Positions 5,190-64,000 are shown, counted from the first letter of the stretch. The stretch: DNA of 64,000 nt from Candidatus Aminicenantes bacterium (GCA_030669305.1 DAOVDU010000002.1:318-64317), one strand, 5' to 3'. Translations and numbers: made by a program. The notes: generated by a model not told the origin, from the letters alone.

Positions 5190-5249
5190 CCTACAAGATT
5201 AGCGGAAAAAATGTTTACAAGCAACTTTATGCTATTATTTTTTAAAAAA

Positions 5250-5352
5250 AATTGGGGTCAAAAAAAATTGGGGTCAAACCTTGACATTTGACGGTTCGCT
5301 CCCCAATTATTCACTTATTTGTCAAATGTCAAGGTTTGACCCCAAATAATTT
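5250..5352. promoter_or_regulatory. Large perfect palindrome (about 33-bp arms, 30-nt spacer) in the divergent intergenic region, overlapping the first ATG of the downstream lipoprotein ORF
   Basis: aaaaaaaattggggtcaaaccttgacatttgac ... gtcaaatgtcaaggtttgaccccaaataatttttt. Arms contain tandem TTGAC half-sites. The spacer carries ccccaatt, the complement of the aattgggg direct repeat. Confidence 0.5.
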
Positions 5353-5372
5353 TTTTGAGAGAATATAAAACA

Positions 5373-6635
5373 ATGTTTGATTTTCTGAAAAAATCTTCTC
5401 TAGTTCTGTTGGCAGGATTGGGACTCTGCCTGTTTCTTGTCATGAGCTGCCAGCTGTTTAAAGAAAAGGAACAATTTGAATGCAGCCTGGTTGAGCTTGT
5501 GAAAAATCCTGACTCTGGATACTATGATGCCATTATCAAAGTAGAGCGCCTCATGATAGACAATGCCCAGAAAACAAGGTTTTCTTTGCTTACTCCGACC
5601 AGCTCCTACGAGATATCGAATCTTTCTTTTATTGATGATGGCCAAGATCCGGAACGGCTGGAAGCAGGAGATGTTTTTACTGTTCCCTTGTGTAAGCCTG
5701 ATTGGAAATTTTATGTCAGAGGGCAGAATGATATCTACTGCTCACACAATTTTTGGGAGATGCTGCCTGTCAGTGACCAATGGCACCCCACGAAATCAGA
5801 TGCGATGGAAATAGCCCAAAGCATTGAAGTTGAATTAGTTGAAGGCCTTCCGAAACCTGTGGCGAAAAATCTCCCTGAAGAGTGGTACCTGGTCGATGAG
5901 AGACTTCCGGATTATGATGATCCCTGCGGATATGTAATTTATCAAAAGCTGCGGGCGGAAGAAGTCAAAGAAGAAGTGAATATCAGGTATTGCTTTTTAA
6001 CTGAGCCTGAAATCAAAGAACTTTATTCAGGTTCAGATACCGAATTTCTTTCCGACTGGACAGATTGGACAAAAGAATCTGGGAAATCCGAGACAATTGC
6101 CGGGCATGATGCCATTTATTGGGACATGCAAGAGATGGGTGAGTTTGACTGGACTTACAGGTATGCTTACATCGATTCAGAAATGGTTATAGAAATTGAC
6201 ATCTATGCAGATCCCCTGGAGCTCTTCAAAACTGAACAGGAAAAGATTCTGGAAGGGAAGTCAAGAAAATTGTTGCTTCGCTATGGATATGGCCCGAAGG
6301 GAGATTCTGAATGGCAGATCATGATCGAGATCTGGATGAATGGGGAAGGAGCCTTCCATAAAAGGTCTAAGGAGGGAATTATCATACAAAAAGTCTTTCG
6401 GTTAGAGAATAGAGAGCTTGAGGAGATTCAAATATCTATTAGGCAGAATCGATTTAGGGAGTTACGTTCCCAGTCTGGCGTCCCCGGGGGAGCTACATCC
6501 TACCTCTCAGTGAGGTATGGGGACCAATACCATACAGTAGAACTGAAGAATGTTACAGTTTTACTCTATAAAAACATAGAACAGACGATAAAAGGCATCG
6601 TGTTGCCCAAGGTGGCTGAAACAGGTGTAAATTGA
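5373..6635 (+). CDS. Hypothetical acidic lipoprotein
   Basis: ORF 5355-6635. The second Met at 5373 gives a classical lipoprotein signal (LLAGLGLCLFLVMSC). No known domain recognised. Confidence 0.55.
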   Translation: MFDFLKKSSLVLLAGLGLCLFLVMSCQLFKEKEQFECSLVELVKNPDSGYYDAIIKVERLMIDNAQKTRFSLLTPTSSYEISNLSFIDDGQDPERLEAGDVFTVPLCKPDWKFYVRGQNDIYCSHNFWEMLPVSDQWHPTKSDAMEIAQSIEVELVEGLPKPVAKNLPEEWYLVDERLPDYDDPCGYVIYQKLRAEEVKEEVNIRYCFLTEPEIKELYSGSDTEFLSDWTDWTKESGKSETIAGHDAIYWDMQEMGEFDWTYRYAYIDSEMVIEIDIYADPLELFKTEQEKILEGKSRKLLLRYGYGPKGDSEWQIMIEIWMNGEGAFHKRSKEGIIIQKVFRLENRELEEIQISIRQNRFRELRSQSGVPGGATSYLSVRYGDQYHTVELKNVTVLLYKNIEQTIKGIVLPKVAETGVN

Positions 6636-19650: not shown

Positions 19651-19700
19651 AATTTGAATAATTCAAGATTCATAATTCAAGATTCAAGGGCTAACTCCAT

Positions 19701-23028: not shown

Positions 23029-23071
23029 TTTGTTTGGAATTTGGGATTTTGATTTTGGAATTTCATTTATA

Positions 23072-30418: not shown

Positions 30419-30480
30419 AGGAATACTTAAAAGCTCAAAGCTCAAAACTCAAAAAAATAAAATTAGGAGGTCATATAGTT

Positions 30481-34087: not shown

Positions 34088-34365
34088 CGAATTTGATTAT
34101 CCTCTATAAAAATCCAATTATTCTCTGAAGTAAGCAATGGTTTTCCTTGATCAGACGAAACTATAAACTGAAATAACAGTAACAAAATCAGGAAATGAAA
34201 TCAAGGTCACTTTGGTTCTATTCTTATACTTGCTATGATTTTAGGGGTTTTTAAATTTTCCCATTAATAATTTTCTTATATACAATAATAAATTATTTAT
34301 TATCAATAATTATATATTGAATAACATTATAATATTACCATTTTCCATTAACCATTAACTATTTT

Positions 34366-35244: not shown

Positions 35245-35369
35245 TCGATTACTCCTTAAACAGAAGATATTTCACAATAATAGCTTTAGATAGATTGGAT
35301 GTCAAAAAAATAAAACTAAATTTCAAAAAATAAATGAATAGCAATTAGTGAAAAGCTCAAATCTGATTT

Positions 35370-35505
35370 CAGTTAGTCTGTTACTCGGTTAATCAGTTAA
35401 TCAGTTAGTCTGTTAAATATTTTAATTAAAATAACAGACTAACAGACTAACCGATTAACAGTTCGTTTTATCGCATTTTTAACTAGACAAACCAGATAAA
35501 CCAGA
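35370..35505. repeat. Composite inverted array of 8-bp TAAC-core repeats (YNGTTANT x6 / ANTAACNG x4) around a palindromic centre, followed by the caaaccagataaaccaga motif
   Basis: cagttagt ctgttact cggttaat cagttaat cagttagt ctgttaaa tattttaattaaaa taacagac taacagac taaccgat taacag. Member of a family also at 57262-57532, 63148-63276 and 49921-49965. Confidence 0.8.
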
Positions 35506-43574: not shown

Positions 43575-43819
43575 TTAGTTTTGTTTTGATATTTATATTA
43601 AATAGAGACAATAATTTAGGCTCCAAATCACGTTGCTTTAATGAGATGAGGTTTAATTATGAAATTTGAGGCCTGATAATAGTATCTATTCCTACCATAA
43701 TCTTGAACTTTTGTCAAATTCCACATAAATTTAGTCAGTTTTAATTTAGTTTTTAGCTCCCTTCTTCTCTTTTTGCGTTTTATTTTTCTCCTTACTCCTC
43801 ACCCATTACTTAAATCTAA

Positions 43820-43900
43820 GTTTTGAGATTTGAGTTTATTTTACCTTAAACCTTCAACATTAAACCAAATATGTTTTGATTTTCTGCTTACGGCTTAAGA
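43820..43900. repeat. About 80-nt 3'-flank repeat, copy 1 (copy 2 at 45011-45099)
   Basis: gttttgag(atttgag)tttattttaccttaaaccttcaacattaaacc...aaatatgttttg.ttt.c..tacggctta occurs immediately 3' of both 43904-44911 and 45101-46513. Confidence 0.75.
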
Positions 43901-45010: not shown

Positions 45011-45099
45011 TTAACAAGTTTTGAGTTTATTTTACCTTAAACCTTCAACATTAAACCTTAAACTAAATATGTTTTGTTTTTTCGGTTTACTACTCACGG
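45011..45099. repeat. About 80-nt 3'-flank repeat, copy 2
   Basis: See 43820-43900. Confidence 0.75.
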
Positions 45100-49761: not shown

Positions 49762-49990
49762 CCTATCCTCCTTTTTTTATAATTTTTGTCAAATAACAAA
49801 TTAAACTAGGAATAAATTTACACTTTTGAAGAGTGCTCTGTCAAATATTTCGCAAATTCCTCAAAAAAAACTAGACTAGTCGCTAAATGTTTTTTGGATC
49901 ATTGCAATAATGGATACCTGTTTTTTTATTGATTTATCTGATTAAACTGACTAAACTGTCAAAATTGACTCAACGGAATTGCTTTATAGT

Positions 49991-57261: not shown

Positions 57262-57532
57262 CAGTTAGTCTGTTAGTCGGTTAATCAGTTAATCCGTTAG
57301 TCTGTTTATCTGTTAATAAGTTTAATTCATATAATTGATAAAAAAGAAATTATATCAAAATGACGATATCAATAATTACCTATTATCCCTACAAATGGAA
57401 GAAGACCCAAATAAGATAACCGACTAACAGTCTAACCGATTAACAGTCTAACAGTCTAACTGATTAACTGACTAACCGTCTAACCGATTAACTGACTAAC
57501 AGTCTAACTGATTAACTGATTAACCGATTAAC
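57262..57532. repeat. Largest inverted array of 8-bp TAAC-core repeats: 7 units, about 100-nt AT-rich spacer, then about 15 inverted units
   Basis: Left arm: cagttagt ctgttagt cggttaat cagttaat ccgttagt ctgtttat ctgttaat. Right arm: gataaccg actaacag tctaaccg attaacag tctaacag tctaactg attaactg actaaccg tctaaccg attaactg actaacag tctaactg attaactg attaaccg attaacaa. Confidence 0.85.
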
Positions 57533-57537
57533 AAATA

Positions 57538-58476
57538 TTAAACAGTTTCTCCACAGTGGGGACAATTTTTTGCTTTATAAGGTAAAGGTCTTCTACAGTT
57601 CCAGCAAAAATCTGCTTTTCTCCTTTCCCGTGCTTTTATCCTTCCCCATATGTCCTCAATTTCTGACTTTGCAGAGTTTTTTCCCTTAAATGAGGAAAGA
57701 TCTTTTATTATTCCTGAAGCCTTCTGATATCTTTCTTCAATCTTGGAGGAAAGGCATTTCATGATTATTTTGTCAATTTCTTTCGGAATTTTATTGTTTT
57801 TTAGACGAGGCGGTGTTATTTCCCCTTTTTGCGCCTTTTCCAGGATCTTAAAGGGGTCAGGATCAAATATGGGAGGCCTCCCGATAATCATCTCATAAAA
57901 AATGCATCCGATAGAATAAATGTCTGATCTAAAAGTTGCCTTTCCTAAAAATTGTTCTGGTGCCATATATGGAGGAGATCCAATTCGAGTTGATGCATAT
58001 GGAATATTGTTCAGCCAAGCTGAAGTTCCGAAATCCGTGATTTTAATTTTTCCTTCATCTGAAATGATTATGTTTGAAGGCCTTAAATCCCTGTGAACGA
58101 TCTTATTCGAATGTGCATGATTAACAGCATCTGAAATTTGTATGATATAATCAATAGCAGTTTCAGCATCGAGGACTTTATCCTTTTCTAATATTTTTTC
58201 CATTGTTTTTCCTTTAATATACTCCATAACCATAAAGAAAACTTTGTTTTCCTTTTCTGCAGAAATCATGCGTACGATATTAGGATGGTTCAAGGCAGCT
58301 TGAAGTCTTGACTCTTTAAGAAGCTTAAACAGCTCTGTAGATTGCTTGTGGGGAACCTTTATAGCCACCTTAATATTGAGCCAGGTGTCTTTGGCAAGAA
58401 ATACAGAACCAAAACCGCCGCTTCCAAGTGAGCGTAGAATCTGATACTTGCCTACTTTTTGACCTTGAAGAAACAT
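57538..58476 (-). CDS. Ser/Thr protein kinase with C-terminal zinc-ribbon
   Basis: GSGGFGSV, VAIK, HRDLRPSNI, DFG and APE motifs. C-terminal CWNC...CPHCG zinc ribbon. Confidence 0.8.
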   Translation of the reverse strand: MFLQGQKVGKYQILRSLGSGGFGSVFLAKDTWLNIKVAIKVPHKQSTELFKLLKESRLQAALNHPNIVRMISAEKENKVFFMVMEYIKGKTMEKILEKDKVLDAETAIDYIIQISDAVNHAHSNKIVHRDLRPSNIIISDEGKIKITDFGTSAWLNNIPYASTRIGSPPYMAPEQFLGKATFRSDIYSIGCIFYEMIIGRPPIFDPDPFKILEKAQKGEITPPRLKNNKIPKEIDKIIMKCLSSKIEERYQKASGIIKDLSSFKGKNSAKSEIEDIWGRIKARERRKADFCWNCRRPLPYKAKNCPHCGETV

Positions 58477-58515: not shown

Positions 58516-58710
58516 TTAGAGCCGCGTATCGCTTTTTCCAATTTCTTCAAATCTGGCCAAATAGTTGATGCCGTTTGCATCAAAGAGCCAAACTGTTTTT
58601 TTTGGTTTTATCCTGGCTACTTTGCTTAAATGGTGATGCTCATCTCCGTCTAGAAGAATGTAAGAAGAATGAATGTTGCTATCTTTTATAAAGAAACGAT
58701 TCGAAGTCAA
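58516..58710 (-). pseudogene. rsmE: N-terminal 64-codon remnant of 16S rRNA methyltransferase RsmE
   Basis: MTSNRFFIKDSNI...LDGDEHHHLSKVARIKPKKTVWLFDANGINYLARFEEI matches the RsmE N-terminal PUA-like domain. The ORF ends after 64 aa, only about 40 nt before the kinase start. Full length would be about 240 aa. Confidence 0.5.
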
Positions 58711-59877: not shown

Positions 59878-61425
59878 TTAAGTTCTTTTGATGATCTTGT
59901 TAATTTCTTCTTGGGTAAGACCAAAAGAAGGTCTAACCTCAATCTTTTGTTCTTTACCAGTATATACATCTTTGGCGGATACCTTTGCTAATCCATCAGA
60001 GTCTATTTCAAATGTTACATCTATTTGTGGAACGCCGGCTGAAGCAGATTCGATTCCGACCAAATCAAACACAGCCAAAGGTTTGTTTTCAGAGCTTTTT
60101 TCACTTTCTCCCTGCAGGACTTTAACCTTCACTCTTCTTTGGTTATGTTCAACAGTCGTAAAGGAACGGCTCTTTTTACATGGGATGGTTGTATTTTTTT
60201 CAATTATTCTGATAAATATATCGTTTTCAGTATCTATACCTAACGATAAAGGAGTAACATCAAGGAGAAGAATGAGATCTTTCATTTTGCCCTTCAGAAT
60301 TCCTGACTGGATTGCTGCTCCCATAGCCACAATTTCATCTGGATTTATATGTTCAAGTGGTTCTTTCCCAAAAAATTCAGTAATTGTCTTCCTTATCAAT
60401 GGCATTCGTGTTTGTCCTCCCACAAGGATAACCTCATCAATGTTTTCGCATCCTAATTTACTGTCATTGAGAGCCTGCTCTATGAATGGAAGCGCTTTGT
60501 CTACAAGATCCCTGGTCAACTCTTCGAGCTTTTTTCTTGTGAGATTTTTTCTTATGTGTTTGGATCCTGATTTTTCTGAACATATGAAAGGAAGATGAAT
60601 TTCGCTTTCAAGAGTAAAAGAAAGCTCTCGTTTCGCTTTTTCAGCTGCTTCCTTTATTCTCTGAAGGGCCAACTTATCCTGAGAAAGATCGATATTATTC
60701 TCTTTCTTAAATTCATCTATCAACCAATCCAATATGCGATTATCAAAATCTTCTCCTCCAAGGTATGTGTTTCCGTTTGTTGCCAATACTTGGAAAATAC
60801 CATCATTGATTTCCATTAGTGTTATATCAAAGGTGCCACCGCCTATATCGAAAACAGCGATTGTAGCATTTTTTTTCGTGTTAAACCCATAGGTTAAGCT
60901 TGCGGATGTAGGCTCATTAATGACTCGAATTACTTCTAAGCCAACAATTTTGGCTGCATCTTTTGTTGCTTGCCTTTGATGGTCATCAAAGTGAGCAGGA
61001 ACTGTAATAACTGTTTCAGTGACTTTGTCTCCTAAGTAAGATTCAGCACACTCTTTCAAATATTTCAGAATCATAGCTGATATTTCCTGAGGGCTTATCA
61101 AGCGTGAATCGAGTTCAACTACAGCGTCGCCGTTTGGCGATTCGGCTAATCTGTAGAGTATCCTATTTTTCGTGTCGTTCACCTCTTCTGAATTGAATTT
61201 CTTCCCCATCAGCCTCTTTATAGCAATGATGGTATTTTCAGGATTTGTAATAGCCTGCCGCATGGCTAGATTACCGATGAGCCTTTCACCGGACGTGGTG
61301 AAACTCACAACCGAAGGCGTTGTTGAGAGACCATCAAGATTGGGGATAATTCTTGGTTCGTTCCCTTCTAGATAAGCAACGCAGGAATAGGTCGTTCCCA
61401 GGTCTATACCTATTATATGTCCCAT
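59878..61425 (-). CDS. dnaK: Hsp70 chaperone DnaK, ending right after the substrate-binding beta-domain (no helical lid)
   Basis: IGIDLGTTYSCVA, DLGGGTFD and the VLLLDVTPLSLGIDT linker are present. The C-terminus is ...VSAKDVYTGKEQKIEVRPSFGLTQEEINKIIKRT* at 515 aa, against about 610-640 aa for canonical DnaK. Only 25 nt separate it from dnaJ. Confidence 0.85.
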   Translation of the reverse strand: MGHIIGIDLGTTYSCVAYLEGNEPRIIPNLDGLSTTPSVVSFTTSGERLIGNLAMRQAITNPENTIIAIKRLMGKKFNSEEVNDTKNRILYRLAESPNGDAVVELDSRLISPQEISAMILKYLKECAESYLGDKVTETVITVPAHFDDHQRQATKDAAKIVGLEVIRVINEPTSASLTYGFNTKKNATIAVFDIGGGTFDITLMEINDGIFQVLATNGNTYLGGEDFDNRILDWLIDEFKKENNIDLSQDKLALQRIKEAAEKAKRELSFTLESEIHLPFICSEKSGSKHIRKNLTRKKLEELTRDLVDKALPFIEQALNDSKLGCENIDEVILVGGQTRMPLIRKTITEFFGKEPLEHINPDEIVAMGAAIQSGILKGKMKDLILLLDVTPLSLGIDTENDIFIRIIEKNTTIPCKKSRSFTTVEHNQRRVKVKVLQGESEKSSENKPLAVFDLVGIESASAGVPQIDVTFEIDSDGLAKVSAKDVYTGKEQKIEVRPSFGLTQEEINKIIKRT

Positions 61426-63092: not shown

Positions 63093-63147
63093 TGTGTTTC
63101 CTCTGAATAAAATTATATCATTAAATCTTAAAAATCTTCAAATTACT

Positions 63148-63276
63148 TTAGTCGGTTGAGTCCGTTTAGTCCATTATGTTAATTCCCGTTTATCTGGTTT
63201 ATCTGGTTTGTTTTGTTTCTCTGCTTCATTAATTTACTTTGTTAAATAACAGACTAACCGATTAACCGACTAACAG
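63148..63276. repeat. Third composite inverted TAAC-octamer array, containing tctggtttatctggtttg (inverse of the motif at 35487-35504)
   Basis: tagtcggt tgagtccg tttagtcc ... cgtttatctggtttatctggtttg ... gttaaataacagactaaccgattaaccgactaacag. Confidence 0.75.
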
Positions 63277-63290
63277 AAATAAGTTTTGAG

Positions 63291-64000
63291 TTATTTTACT
63301 ATCCTGATTCCGGCGTAGCCAACGACTTCAAGATTATTTCCGGTGATATCCCCTGAAGTTTGATATTTTATAAGCTCTGCTTTTTTTGCACCTAATTCCT
63401 TTGAAGCAACTAGGGCTGCAGTAGTTGGTTGAAAGCCGCACATGCTGATTTCTTCAATTTTTACAACAGAGTAAAGTCCTTCTGCATCAAGCGTCATTAT
63501 TTTTTCGATTGCTGAAAAATCTTTTTTTTTCGCGACTTCCTGGCTTACATAATGACTCATATCTGTACTGGCTACAATCATAACTTCTTCACCAAGCTCC
63601 TTGATGGCTTTAGATATGGCTTTCCCTAATTCATTCATGTCTTCAAGAGAGGAATAAAACGCAATAATTATAGGGACAATAGAAATGTCGCTTTTGAAAT
63701 ATTGAATAAAGGGAAGCTGAACCTCAAGGGAATGCTCGTGGGAATGCGCTTTATCATCTTCTGTGATGAGTGCGGAATGTTTCATAATGAGCTTAGACAA
63801 ACGAGTGTCAACAGGAACATCTCCTAAAGGAGTTTCCCAAATGCCCTCTTTCATTATAGCAAGATTAGTTGCCACGTTTTTATGGCTGGGGCCTAAGATG
63901 ACGAACTTATTAGGAAGATAAACAGAAGAAAAAACCGCACCAGCAACACTTCCTGAGTATTCAAATCCTGCATGCGGGGAAATCACACAGACTGCTTTTT
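63291..64000 (-). CDS. MEMO1-family protein (AmmeMemoRadiSam system protein B-like), 5'-partial: the frame stays open to the window edge
   Basis: ISPHAGFEYSGSVAGAVF and ...MSHYV...H motifs of the MEMO1/dioxygenase-like family. The conserved HAG motif normally lies about 45 aa from the N-terminus, so the true start is beyond 64000. Confidence 0.7.
   Translation of the reverse strand, partial: KAVCVISPHAGFEYSGSVAGAVFSSVYLPNKFVILGPSHKNVATNLAIMKEGIWETPLGDVPVDTRLSKLIMKHSALITEDDKAHSHEHSLEVQLPFIQYFKSDISIVPIIIAFYSSLEDMNELGKAISKAIKELGEEVMIVASTDMSHYVSQEVAKKKDFSAIEKIMTLDAEGLYSVVKIEEISMCGFQPTTAALVASKELGAKKAELIKYQTSGDITGNNLEVVGYAGIRIVK

What the first reader, a model, noticed from the sequence alone, without database searches (positions are those of the whole stretch)
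57262..57532. Family of composite inverted arrays of 8-bp TAAC-core repeats at three to four intergenic sites
Tandem 8-mers with a fixed TAAC/GTTA core (consensus about NNGTTANT) form a left array that is mirrored by an inverted array (ANTAACNG) after an AT-rich spacer. The loci are 57262-57532 (7 + about 15 units), 35370-35462, 63148-63276 and a weaker copy at 49921-49965.

Two loci also share a second motif, TCTGGTTTATCTGGTTTG, in opposite orientations (35487-35504 and 63191-63209). The 8-bp phasing, strict core conservation and arm symmetry are not explained by any coding feature, and there is no spacer/repeat alternation as in CRISPR.

Candidate functions include REP/BIME-like extragenic elements, arrayed binding sites for a DNA-binding protein (a partition centromere or a nucleoid-associated protein), cruciform-forming recombination hotspots, or the footprint of a non-autonomous mobile element. 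I do not recognise this unit from described repeat families.
Basis: seen in the sequence. Interest (0 to 1): 0.8.

Follow-up and report, generated by a model that had tools for sequence, protein, structure and literature searches.

The report
Dispersed octamer-repeat hairpin elements, Aminicenantes
The window holds copies of a genome-wide, strain-variable family of non-coding hairpin elements built from tandem 8-bp GTTARTCD units in an uncultured Aminicenantes bacterium. This is an unusual variant of the known intergenic repeat families (REP/BIME, STRR, TAACTGA repeats), and its function is unproven.

Summary
Arrays of the 8-bp unit GTTARTCD face inverted arrays at 35372-35459, 57264-57532 and 63147-63278.

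The window is a chromosomal contig of an uncultured Candidatus Aminicenantes. A 23-nt array signature hits 19 loci on 15 large contigs of one related metagenome population, so the family is genome-wide.

Strains with 95-98% identical flanking proteins differ at all three loci in unit number. One lacks about 105 bp of an element, and one has an inverted loop. Relatives at 73-81% protein identity have no arrays at the syntenic sites.

Elements are never inside ORFs. They abut stop codons (median 11 nt) and stay away from start codons (median 144 nt). Arm polarity is always GTTA-array, loop, TAAC-array (35:0).

Six of eight unit positions are about 90% conserved, and the two free positions are not compensated between arms. 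A separate MITE (8-bp TSD) landed twice in the hairpin loop, and a remnant sits in the 57320-57416 spacer.

Best reading: a REPIN/BIME-like, slippage-prone, non-autonomous repeat, probably recognised unit by unit by an unknown protein. It is not a centromere, CRISPR array, canonical terminator or known Rfam family.

The parts
35355..35371 (+). Outer flank gctcaaatctgatttca. It is a degenerate CTCAAAR/partial-unit motif that precedes the GTTA arm in many copies (consensus CTCAAAACTGATTTCT).
   Evidence: Recurs before GTTA arms in L221, L223, L230, L233, L252, L257 and L262, and at window site 4.
35372..35415 (+). Site 1 left arm: five GTTARTCD units plus a terminal GTTA.
   Evidence: It matches the site 3 left arm at 43 of 46 nt (read from the sequences).
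35416..35431 (.). Site 1 loop aatattttaattaaaa, the canonical AT-rich palindromic loop of the short-loop subfamily.
   Evidence: The same loop is in L218, L223, L224, L230, L233, L241, L263, L265 and L266. It is inverted in strain L272-L274.
35432..35459 (+). Site 1 right arm: TAAC-type units (GTTA units on the minus strand), 4 cores.
   Evidence: The hairpin has z = -6.2 (+ strand) and -8.3 (- strand).
35481..35505 (-). Array of the 9-bp variant (GTTTRTCTG, about 2.8 units).
   Evidence: It is expanded to about 5 units in L272-L274.
49921..49965 (.). Solo array of the 9-bp variant (CTGAYTAAA, about 4 units). A weak member.
   Evidence: period 9, 3.2 copies. The unit is the reverse complement of TTTARTCAG.
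57264..57319 (+). Site 3 arm of 7 units (GTTA on the + strand). It lies next to the BCAT promoter-like -35 box at 57246-57241.
   Evidence: It has 6 units in strains L195-L197.
57320..57416 (.). Site 3 spacer (97 bp): cargo in the hairpin loop. It contains one terminal inverted repeat of MITE family 'X'.
   Evidence: The same spacer is 98% identical in L195-L197 and 95% identical at a different locus in L232/L241.
57387..57408 (-). X-like MITE terminal inverted repeat (GGGTCTTCTTCCATTTGTAGGG on the minus strand), abutting the arm.
   Evidence: Aligns with the TIRs of complete X copies in L218, L221, L246 and L257.
57417..57532 (-). Site 3 long arm: 15 GTTA cores on the minus strand. It starts 5 nt after the stop codon of the Ser/Thr kinase gene (57538-58476, minus strand).
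   Evidence: Only 5 units in L195-L197. The whole element folds with z = -7.9 and -8.4.
63147..63210 (+). Site 4 arm made of units with 9-bp period (TTTAGTCGG ... ATCTGGTTT). It ends just upstream of the hrcA promoter-like TTGAAG-N18-TATAAT, which I read by eye from the sequence.
   Evidence: Only its outer 3 units are present in L195-L197.
63211..63246 (.). Site 4 spacer.
   Evidence: Present in L252, absent in L195-L197.
63247..63278 (-). Site 4 arm of 4 GTTA units on the minus strand.
   Evidence: Part of the roughly 105-bp segment that strains L195-L197 lack.
63275..63290 (-). Outer flank motif CTCAAAACTTATTTCT (minus strand), directly after the stop codon of the Memo-like gene at 63291.

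Best explanation
These loci are copies of a lineage-specific, non-coding, dispersed repeat family of an uncultured Aminicenantes genome.

Structure: each copy is a long imperfect palindrome. It has a run of tandem 8-bp units (GTTARTCD, or the 9-bp variant GTTTARTCD), then an AT-rich loop (canonically TTTTAATTAAAATATT, sometimes with cargo), then the inverted run.

Shown:
- Copies are spread over many intergenic sites.
- They are gained, lost, resized and flipped between very close strains.
- Whole composites recur at unrelated loci.
- They sit only in promoter-free gaps: just after stop codons, or between back-to-back -35 boxes.

Inferred:
- Arrays grow and shrink by replication slippage and unequal recombination.
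- The inverted arms recombine with each other, which explains the loop inversion.
- Copies spread by an unidentified trans-acting activity in the way REPINs or MITEs do.
- That activity, or a host DNA-binding protein, reads each 8-bp unit. This would keep 6 of 8 positions constant and fix the head-to-head polarity of the arms.
- For the host the elements are mostly neutral. Their side effects are stable stem-loops at mRNA 3' ends, cruciform-prone DNA and landing pads for other MITEs.
For: Family and dispersal:
- The array signature GTTASTCGGTTAATCNGTTARTC hits 54 metagenome loci. Nineteen of them lie on 15 large contigs of one JGI sample, the sample that also holds a strain with 98% identical HrcA.
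- The site 1 and site 3 arms match at 43 of 46 nt.
- The arms plus the 97-bp spacer of site 3 recur at 92-95% identity at a locus with unrelated flanks.

Turnover:
- Site 3 has 15+7 units here and 5+6 in L195-L197.
- Site 4 has about 105 bp that L195-L197 lack and L252 keeps.
- Site 1 differs in unit numbers and has an inverted loop in L272-L274.
- Relatives at 73-81% protein identity with conserved synteny have 84-85-bp array-free spacers at site 3 and no arrays at all.

Placement:
- 0 of 43 elements lie inside ORFs.
- Distance to a facing 3' gene end has a median of 11 nt (23 of 35 within 20 nt).
- Distance to a facing 5' end has a median of 144 nt (3 of 37 within 20 nt).
- Site 1 lies between two divergent promoter-like sites, and site 3 ends 16 bp upstream of a -35 box that relatives retain.

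Unit constraint:
- Positions 1-4, 6 and 7 are 87-94% conserved, while positions 5 and 8 are free.
- The free positions are complementary between arms only at chance level (18 of 44 observed, 17.7 expected).
- Pair polarity is 20:0 in the metagenome loci and 15:0 in other phyla.

Hairpin potential: z = -6 to -8.

Target for other elements: MITE X carries a perfect 8-bp TSD, TAAAATAT, in the loop at two loci whose internal sequences differ.
Against: - No transposase or other recurrent gene was found next to arrays in about 300 kb of sampled loci.
- No target-site duplication or sharp element boundary could be defined, because the arrays fray outward.
- Mobility is therefore inferred from dispersal and polymorphism and has not been shown.
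- The same lineage is rich in several other short tandem-repeat families: 34 arrays per 100 kb against 8 per 100 kb in relatives. A general slippage-prone genome could account for part of the pattern without any dedicated enzyme.
- No binding protein is known.
- Site 4 folds poorly (z = -2.0 and -0.9).
Confidence: 0.55

Rival explanations
1. The arrays are functional operator or architectural sites. A lineage-specific DNA-binding protein, for example a ribbon-helix-helix protein or a nucleoid-associated protein, binds one 8-bp unit per subunit and polymerises head-to-head along both arms. This would regulate neighbouring promoters or organise the nucleoid.
For: - Six of eight unit positions are conserved, and the free positions are uncompensated between arms.
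- Arm polarity is strictly convergent.
- At sites 1, 3 and 4 the arrays end 5-65 bp upstream of -35-like boxes.
- From general knowledge, an 8-bp register matches MetJ met boxes and ParG/parH, and omega protein prefers convergent over divergent heptads.
- The authors of PMC2700814 guessed at global-regulator sites for similar Geobacter arrays.
Against: - Unit number and even presence vary between strains with 95-98% identical flanking proteins, and the arrays are absent from relatives with the same genes and promoters.
- Most copies abut stop codons rather than promoters.
- The flanking genes are unrelated housekeeping genes.
- No candidate protein has been identified.
Confidence: 0.2
2. The function is at the RNA level. 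The hairpins are 3'-UTR stem-loops selected as transcription terminators or as barriers to 3' exonucleases, as shown for REP elements.
For: - Twenty-three of 35 facing 3' gene ends lie within 20 nt of an element.
- The predicted stems are very stable.
- A GTTA array stops any reading frame within 24 nt, so it can sit on a stop codon.
Against: - Only 1 of 10 hairpins that follow a gene has a U-tract.
- Site 1 lies between divergent promoter-like sites and is probably untranscribed.
- Solo arrays next to 3' ends show no clear strand bias (9:5).
- The arms are unequal (15 against 7 units) and the free positions are not compensated.
- Relatives do without the arrays.
Confidence: 0.15
3. Plain microsatellite noise: independent replication slippage at each locus in a slippage-prone genome, with no shared origin and no recognition by any protein.
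For: - Copy number is hypervariable.
- The lineage carries many other 7-9-bp array families.
- In viral contigs, tandem octamers with permuted cores are as common as GTTA octamers: 25, 24 and 16 loci against 16.
Against: - Arms at different loci are near-identical mosaics of unit variants, and a whole arms-plus-spacer composite is duplicated elsewhere.
- Variation is confined to 2 of 8 positions.
- Polarity is 35:0.
- The loop sequence is conserved among many copies.
Confidence: 0.07
4. A partition centromere or ParB loading site for the adjacent parAB operon.
For: - Site 1 lies about 0.9-1.2 kb upstream of the parA start.
- No canonical parS was found in the window even with 3 mismatches.
- From general knowledge, known plasmid centromeres such as parH and parC are arrays of short repeats.
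Against: - Copies are scattered over 15 contigs totalling about 1.6 Mb.
- A relative with parAB has no arrays nearby.
- From general knowledge, chromosomal ParB proteins with this domain set bind a 16-bp palindrome.
Confidence: 0.03

Closest known systems
TAACTGA heptanucleotide direct repeats of marine Beggiatoaceae, some Cyanobacteria and Bacteroidetes (MacGregor 2015, PMC4679880)
   Same: - Intergenic tandem arrays with nearly the same letters: TAACTGA against TAACNGAY.
- Many sets per genome and a sporadic distribution across phyla.
- Relatives have shorter, repeat-free spacers.
- Arrays create stop codons in all reading frames.
- The function and the binding protein are unknown.
   Different: - The period here is 8-9 nt, not 7. 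No tandem TAACTGA occurs in 298 kb of this lineage.
- Here the arrays are organised as inverted pairs, whereas the BOGUAY genome had a single inverted case.
- Here they abut stop codons. In BOGUAY they sit in forward orientation 1 to a few nt upstream of start codons.
Paired tandem octanucleotide sites of Geobacter metallireducens ('class 1-3 global regulator binding sites', Aklujkar et al. 2009, PMC2700814)
   Same: - Tandem octamers (GTTGCTYN) in two sets on opposite strands at variable distance, dozens per genome and species-specific.
- A co-occurring 8-9-bp class and a heptamer class.
- Insertion sequences sit at a fixed distance from the sites. Here, analogously, MITE X lands in the loop.
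   Different: - The unit sequence and the phylum differ.
- The Geobacter sites have only 3-5 units; here there are up to 15.
- Their polymorphism and polarity were not analysed, and the IHF/HU binding proposed there is untested.
REP / BIME / REPIN elements of Proteobacteria
   Same: - Extragenic and high in copy number.
- Inverted doublets form hairpins with fixed polarity.
- Mosaic combination with other short motifs.
- Located at 3' ends of genes.
- Used as targets by other insertion elements.
- No TSD.
   Different: - A REP is one 20-40-nt imperfect palindrome with a GTAG head.
- Here each arm is a tandem array of non-palindromic 8-mers of variable number.
- No RAYT gene was seen, although it was not searched for exhaustively.
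Cyanobacterial STRR heptamers and 'long simple sequence repeats' of 5-11 nt (Mazel 1990 from my own knowledge; Mrazek 2007 as summarised in PMC4679880)
   Same: - Several families of 7-9-nt tandem repeats fill intergenic regions of particular lineages only.
- They are prone to slippage, and their function is unresolved.
   Different: STRR and LSSR arrays are described as direct arrays. A strict inverted pairing, a conserved loop and composite duplication are not part of that description.
MITEs
   Same: - Short, AT-rich and non-coding.
- Inverted ends.
- Multi-copy.
- Presence/absence polymorphism between strains.
   Different: - No TSD, no sharp termini and no related autonomous element were found.
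- The ends are variable-number tandem arrays.
- The true MITE in these loci (family X, with TIR and 8-bp TSD) is a different element, nested in the loop.
Arrayed RHH operators and centromeres (MetJ met boxes, ParG-parH, omega heptads). This is a works-like comparison made from my own knowledge.
   Same: - Contiguous 7-8-bp units in direct and convergent orientation.
- A conserved 4-6-bp core within each unit.
   Different: Those arrays occupy one or a few loci tied to a cognate gene and are conserved. The arrays here are genome-wide, unstable and without a known protein.

Membership tests
LSSR / STRR-type intergenic tandem repeats | Head-to-tail copies of a 5-11-nt unit, longer than chance allows | tested here: met
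   27 hits against 0.16 expected. TRF reports period 8 with 6-14.6 copies.
LSSR / STRR-type intergenic tandem repeats | Copy number differs between close strains | tested here: met
   15 against 5 units, 7 against 6 units, and 2.8 against about 5 units.
LSSR / STRR-type intergenic tandem repeats | Many intergenic loci in a particular lineage, few in relatives | tested here: met
REP / REPIN | The unit is a single 20-40-nt imperfect palindrome with a conserved GTAG-type head | tested here: not met
   The arms are tandem non-palindromic 8-mers.
REP / REPIN | Inverted doublets with fixed polarity that form a hairpin | tested here: met
   Polarity 35:0. Fold z = -6 to -8.
REP / REPIN | A cognate RAYT (Y1 transposase) gene flanked by the repeats | tested here: inconclusive
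   No recurrent gene lies next to arrays in about 300 kb. The whole genome was not available, and a single-copy gene would not register as recurrent.
MITE | Terminal inverted repeats | tested here: met
   The inverted arrays make up both ends.
MITE | Target-site duplication flanking the element | tested here: not met
   No duplication at site 3 (compared with L198/L202), at site 4 (compared with L195), or at the second copy in L232. The nested family X does have 8-bp TSDs.
MITE | Presence/absence polymorphism at orthologous sites | tested here: met
   Site 4 is partly absent in L195-L197 and present in L252. Site 3 is absent in L198/L202.
MITE | A related autonomous element encoding a transposase | tested here: inconclusive
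   None seen in the sampled loci. The collections could not be scanned again.
TAACTGA repeats (MacGregor 2015) | Heptamer TAACTGA in tandem | tested here: not met
   No (TAACTGA)2 or longer in 298 kb of the lineage. The period here is 8-9 nt.
TAACTGA repeats (MacGregor 2015) | Forward orientation within a few nt upstream of start codons | tested here: not met
   Median distance to facing 5' gene ends is 144 nt, while the elements abut 3' ends.
Geobacter metallireducens class 1 paired octanucleotide sites | Tandem octamers in two sets on opposite strands at variable distance | tested here: met
.
Geobacter metallireducens class 1 paired octanucleotide sites | Unit consensus GTTGCTYN | tested here: not met
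   The unit here is GTTARTCD.
Partition centromere (parS / parC / parH) | One or a few clustered loci linked to the par operon or origin and kept in relatives with the same ParB | tested here: not met
   Dispersed over 15 contigs. Absent next to parAB in L275.
CRISPR array | Repeats of 24-48 nt alternating with unique spacers | tested here: not met
   Contiguous 8-nt units without spacers.
Intrinsic terminator | Stem-loop followed by a U-tract | tested here: not met
   One of 10 has a T-run. The consensus scan calls no terminator within the arrays or spacer; its only call in the scanned range lies outside the element, inside the kinase gene.
Any Rfam family | Match at the gathering score | tested here: not met
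   Only a tRNA in the window. In E-value mode there are only generic hairpin (miRNA-precursor) hits far below threshold.

The most novel reading that the evidence does not exclude
Each 7-9-bp TAAC/GTTA-core unit is the binding site of one subunit of an unidentified, horizontally spreading sequence-specific protein, either transposase-like or RHH-like. The protein loads head-to-head on the two arms. The same protein-repeat partnership would then explain three things: the Aminicenantes hairpins, the identically polarised GTTA...TAAC array pairs seen in Bacteroidota, Saprospiraceae, Hyphomicrobiales, Ectothiorhodospiraceae, Phycisphaerae and Gemmatimonadales (15:0), and the long-unexplained cross-phylum TAACTGA repeats.
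Probability: 0.12. Interest if true: 0.8.

Novelty: new variant of a known kind. Interest (0 to 1): 0.45.

Why it matters
- It adds a well-anatomised case from an uncultured phylum to an unsolved class of bacterial intergenic repeats (STRR, TAACTGA, the Geobacter octamer pairs). Three features constrain the mechanism: six fixed and two free positions per unit, no compensation between arms, and invariant head-to-head polarity.
- Practically, these arrays break short-read assemblies of this lineage. Every Logan contig examined ends at or in one.
- They are natural VNTR markers for strain tracking.
- They act as landing pads for another MITE and as sites of local inversion, so they contribute to genome plasticity.
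- If a cognate protein exists, it could link octamer, nonamer and heptamer TAAC-core repeats across phyla.

Tried and rejected
- **Cross-phylum family claim.** A genome-contig scan with (GTTARWCN)3GTTA returned more than 114 loci in many phyla. In viral contigs, however, permuted-core controls were as frequent (16 against 25, 24 and 16). The wide distribution alone is therefore not evidence of one family.
- **Autonomous element.** An outward-facing array pair 2.9 kb apart in L045 turned out to be TAAC/TGAC tetramer satellites. An all-against-all comparison of ORFs near arrays gave no recurrent gene.
- **Rfam.** Nothing in gathering or E-value mode.
- **Literature search for exact 16-mers of the arrays.** No paper.
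- **parS and CIRCE.** Neither is in the window, so neither explains sites 1 or 4.
- **Terminator reading.** No U-tracts.
- **RNA-stem selection.** No compensatory pattern.
- **Strand bias of solo arrays next to 3' ends.** 9:5, not significant.
- **Myb-like YAACNG, IHF, CtrA, GANTC and MetJ consensus comparisons.** Done by eye only. None fits, and they were dropped.
- **Exact-protein look-ups with the BCAT and Rho proteins.** They gave nothing, or only fragmented Logan contigs.

Full report
**1. Observation**

The sequence at the reported coordinates is as described.
- Site 3 has seven GTTA-type octamers at 57264-57319, a 97-bp AT-rich spacer, and fifteen TAAC cores at 57417-57532.
- Site 1 has five units plus a terminal GTTA core at 35372-35415, a 16-nt loop, and four TAAC cores at 35432-35459.
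- Site 4 has four units at 63247-63278, facing a degenerate arm at 63147-63210.

GTTAN4GTTAN4GTTA with at most one mismatch occurs 27 times against 0.16 expected, and all but one hit lie at these loci. Tandem Repeats Finder reports period 8, with sub-periods of 16, 24 and 48.

The 18-mer 'second motif' occurs exactly twice, in opposite orientation. It has a 9-bp period (GTTTRTCTG). In a related locus it runs straight into an 8-bp GTTA array in the same orientation (L263). The left arm of site 4 and the weak copy at 49921-49965 also have the 9-bp register. I therefore treat them as one family with 8-bp and 9-bp variants.

Over 313 units from this lineage the unit is G-T-T-A-R-T-C-D. Positions 1-4, 6 and 7 are 87-94% conserved. 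Position 5 is G or A. Position 8 is T, G or A.

**2. Context**

The window is a bacterial chromosome segment with housekeeping genes (Pfam labels).
- Site 1 lies between a divergently transcribed homocysteine S-methyltransferase gene and an SDR-parA-parB cluster.
- Site 3 lies between a Ser/Thr kinase gene and a branched-chain aminotransferase (BCAT) gene.
- Site 4 lies between a Memo-like gene and hrcA-grpE-dnaK-dnaJ.

NCBI labels homologues of HrcA and of the methyltransferase as Candidatus Aminicenantes. A 100% identical methyltransferase sits on an NCBI contig of 64,690 bp, presumably the source of the window. The only Rfam family reaching its gathering score is a tRNA. In E-value mode the arrays hit only generic hairpin models far below threshold.

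**3. It is a genome-wide family**

A metagenome scan with a 23-nt signature shared by the three sites returned 54 loci. Nineteen lie on 15 large contigs of JGI sample 3300024353 (about 1.6 Mb summed). That sample also holds a strain with 98% identical HrcA.

The recurrent anatomy reads, in order:
- the stop codon of a gene;
- often a CTCAAAACTGATTTCT-like flank;
- 3-15 GTTARTCD units;
- the loop TTTTAATTAAAATATT;
- 2-6 inverted units.

Window site 1 is this canonical type.

The left arms of sites 1 and 3 match at 43 of 46 nt. The arms plus the 97-bp spacer of site 3 recur at 92-95% identity at another locus whose flanks do not match the window (L232, L241). These are therefore copies of one element, not independent slippage products.

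Short-read Logan assemblies of the window's own strain end at or inside the arrays, as expected for a dispersed repeat.

**4. Turnover**

Gene order around sites 3 and 4 is conserved in a close strain (98% HrcA identity) and in two relatives (about 73%).

| Site | Window | Close strains (95-98% protein identity) | More distant relatives (73-81%) |
|---|---|---|---|
| 3 | 15 + 7 units | 5 + 6 units, same spacer | 84-85-bp spacer, no arrays, same TTGACT -35-like box |
| 4 | full element | L195-L197 lack about 105 bp (the GTTA arm, the spacer and part of the 9-mer arm); L252 has them | unrelated spacer |
| 1 | about 2.8 nine-mers | different unit numbers, about 5 nine-mers, loop inverted relative to unchanged flanks | different gene order, no arrays |

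At site 3 the element therefore sits between the kinase stop codon and the BCAT promoter. The site 4 data come, and the site 1 data.

Relatives have no GTTA arrays in about 110 kb. Short-period arrays of all kinds number 34 per 100 kb in the lineage against 8 per 100 kb in relatives. The other families include ACCTTAA, CTCAAAR, TTAAAAC and AGTTAGG. The lineage is thus generally rich in long simple sequence repeats.

**5. Placement**

Among 43 elements in the lineage none lies inside an ORF. Where a gene's 3' end faces the element, the median distance is 11 nt (23 of 35 within 20 nt). Where a 5' end faces it, the median is 144 nt (3 of 37 within 20 nt).

At site 1 the element lies between two divergent promoter-like sites. 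At site 3 it ends 16 bp upstream of the -35-like box.

This is the pattern expected if insertions are tolerated only where they do not disturb promoters. It would also fit a role at 3' ends. However, only one of ten gene-following hairpins has a U-tract, and solo arrays show no clear strand bias next to 3' ends (9:5).

**6. Constraints that point to recognition of the unit**

- The hairpins are very stable on paper: z = -6.2 and -8.3 for site 1, -7.9 and -8.4 for site 3, but only -2.0 and -0.9 for site 4.
- At the two free unit positions the arms are complementary only at chance level (18 of 44; shuffles give 17.7 ± 3.0). Arm lengths are also unequal. Stem perfection is therefore not what is conserved. 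The unit sequence is.
- Paired arrays always read GTTA-array, loop, TAAC-array: 20:0 in the metagenome loci and 15:0 in the cross-phylum loci, and never the reverse (examples). Both arrangements could form hairpins, so this asymmetry calls for a directional reader such as a transposase or a polymerising DNA-binding protein. That step is inference. No such protein was found, and no recurrent gene lies beside the arrays in about 300 kb.

**7. A second, true MITE uses the loops**

A family I call X has 22-25-bp terminal inverted repeats (GGWTCWTCTCC...) and 8-bp AT-rich target-site duplications. Two copies with different internal sequences sit at exactly the same place in GTTA-hairpin loops, with the perfect duplication TAAAATAT (L218 6305-6534, L221 5248-5496). 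Other copies lie outside hairpins (L257 with TSD ATAAATTA; L218 457-662).

The window's site 3 spacer begins with an X-like terminal repeat (57387-57408) next to the arm. [quoted passage not shown]

**8. Comparison with known families**

- The closest in letters are the TAACTGA heptamer repeats of Beggiatoaceae, Cyanobacteria and Bacteroidetes (PMC4679880). The core is the same and the sporadic distribution and unknown function are shared. The period there is 7 nt, the arrays are direct, and they sit just upstream of start codons. No tandem TAACTGA exists in 298 kb of this lineage.
- The closest in architecture are the paired tandem octanucleotide sites of G. metallireducens (PMC2700814).
- REP/BIME/REPIN elements share the extragenic hairpin-doublet logic, but their unit is a single palindrome.
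- MITEs share the inverted ends and the polymorphism, but no TSD, sharp terminus or parent element was found here.
- Centromere, CRISPR, intrinsic terminator and Rfam membership all fail on tested features (see the membership table).

**9. Caveat on the cross-phylum hits**

The genome scan found similar arrays in many phyla. In viral contigs, octamers with permuted cores are just as frequent. Breadth alone therefore proves nothing, and I could not run the same control on bacterial genomes.

Two observations from those loci remain unexplained. The first is the 15:0 pair polarity. The second is a 19:5 excess of TAAC-sense orientation for solo arrays next to start codons, which matches the 'forward' orientation reported for TAACTGA.

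**10. Verdict**

This is a real, lineage-specific, hypervariable family of tandem-octamer hairpin repeats. It is best filed as a new variant of known extragenic repeat families. Its mode of spread and any function are unproven. Interest is moderate.

Noticed in passing
L218 6305-6534 and 457-662; L221 5248-5496; L257 377-598; L246 219-383; window 57387-57408 (remnant): A bona fide MITE family ('X') of 165-249 bp with 22-25-bp TIRs (GGWTCWTCTCC...) and 8-bp AT-rich TSDs. Two copies with different internal sequences sit at the same TAAAATAT in GTTA-hairpin loops. The parent IS family was not identified.
   Followed up: partly
window 43815-43885 and 45015-45085: A dispersed repeat of roughly 40-60 bp (38 bp identical in the BLAST match) containing ACCTTAA heptamer runs lies next to two neighbouring minus-strand genes. 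The same heptamers recur in related loci (L222, L233, L266).
   Followed up: partly
window 19661-19688, 23033-23063, 30425-30454, 34337-34363; L195 4513-4713, 6159-6247, 8974-9084: Several other 7-9-bp tandem repeat families (ATTCAAG, TTTGGAA, ACTCAAA, ACCATTA, GTTTAAG, TTAAAAC, AGTTAGG, GAATAGACC) fill intergenic regions. There are 34 such arrays per 100 kb against 8 per 100 kb in relatives, so the lineage is generally rich in long simple sequence repeats.
   Followed up: partly
window 35416-35431 compared with L272 about 5843-5857: The hairpin loop of site 1 is inverted between close strains while the outer flanks keep their orientation. This suggests recombination between the inverted arms.
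   Followed up: partly
window 5244-5355: A direct 16-bp repeat (AAAAAAAATTGGGGTC x2.2) leads into a long inverted repeat (ttggggtcaaaccttgacatttgac ... gtcaaatgtcaaggtttgaccccaa) in the intergenic region upstream of the ORF at 5355-6635.
   Followed up: no
window 58516-58710: A 64-aa ORF (weak PUA_4 match only) sits between dnaJ and the kinase gene. Relatives encode a full 251-253-aa RsmE-type methyltransferase there (L198, L202), so the gene looks truncated in this lineage.
   Followed up: partly
window 63093-63146 and the whole window: No CIRCE element (TTAGCACTC-N9-GAGTGCTAA, up to 3 mismatches) occurs anywhere in the window, including upstream of hrcA-grpE-dnaK-dnaJ. No canonical parS (up to 3 mismatches) occurs either, although parAB is present.
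   Followed up: partly
cross-phylum loci L002-L115: Solo GTTA-core octamer arrays lying within 30 nt of a start codon are TAAC-sense to that gene 19 times against 5. This is the same 'forward' orientation reported for TAACTGA heptamers in Beggiatoaceae.
   Followed up: partly
L057 2732-2798; L096 685-760 (Saprospiraceae MAG GFS_3868): Seven-bp versions (GTTAATG ... TAACCAT) form the same 'array, loop, inverted array' hairpins. This genome has array hits on at least eight contigs.
   Followed up: no
window about 1-34000 compared with 34000-64000: G+C drops from about 0.42 to about 0.36 near 34 kb, and all GTTA arrays lie in the lower-GC half. The genes there are housekeeping genes, so this is not an obvious island.
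   Followed up: no
window 59878-61425: DnaK is only 515 aa here (520 aa in relatives), shorter than I would expect for a bacterial DnaK.
   Followed up: no
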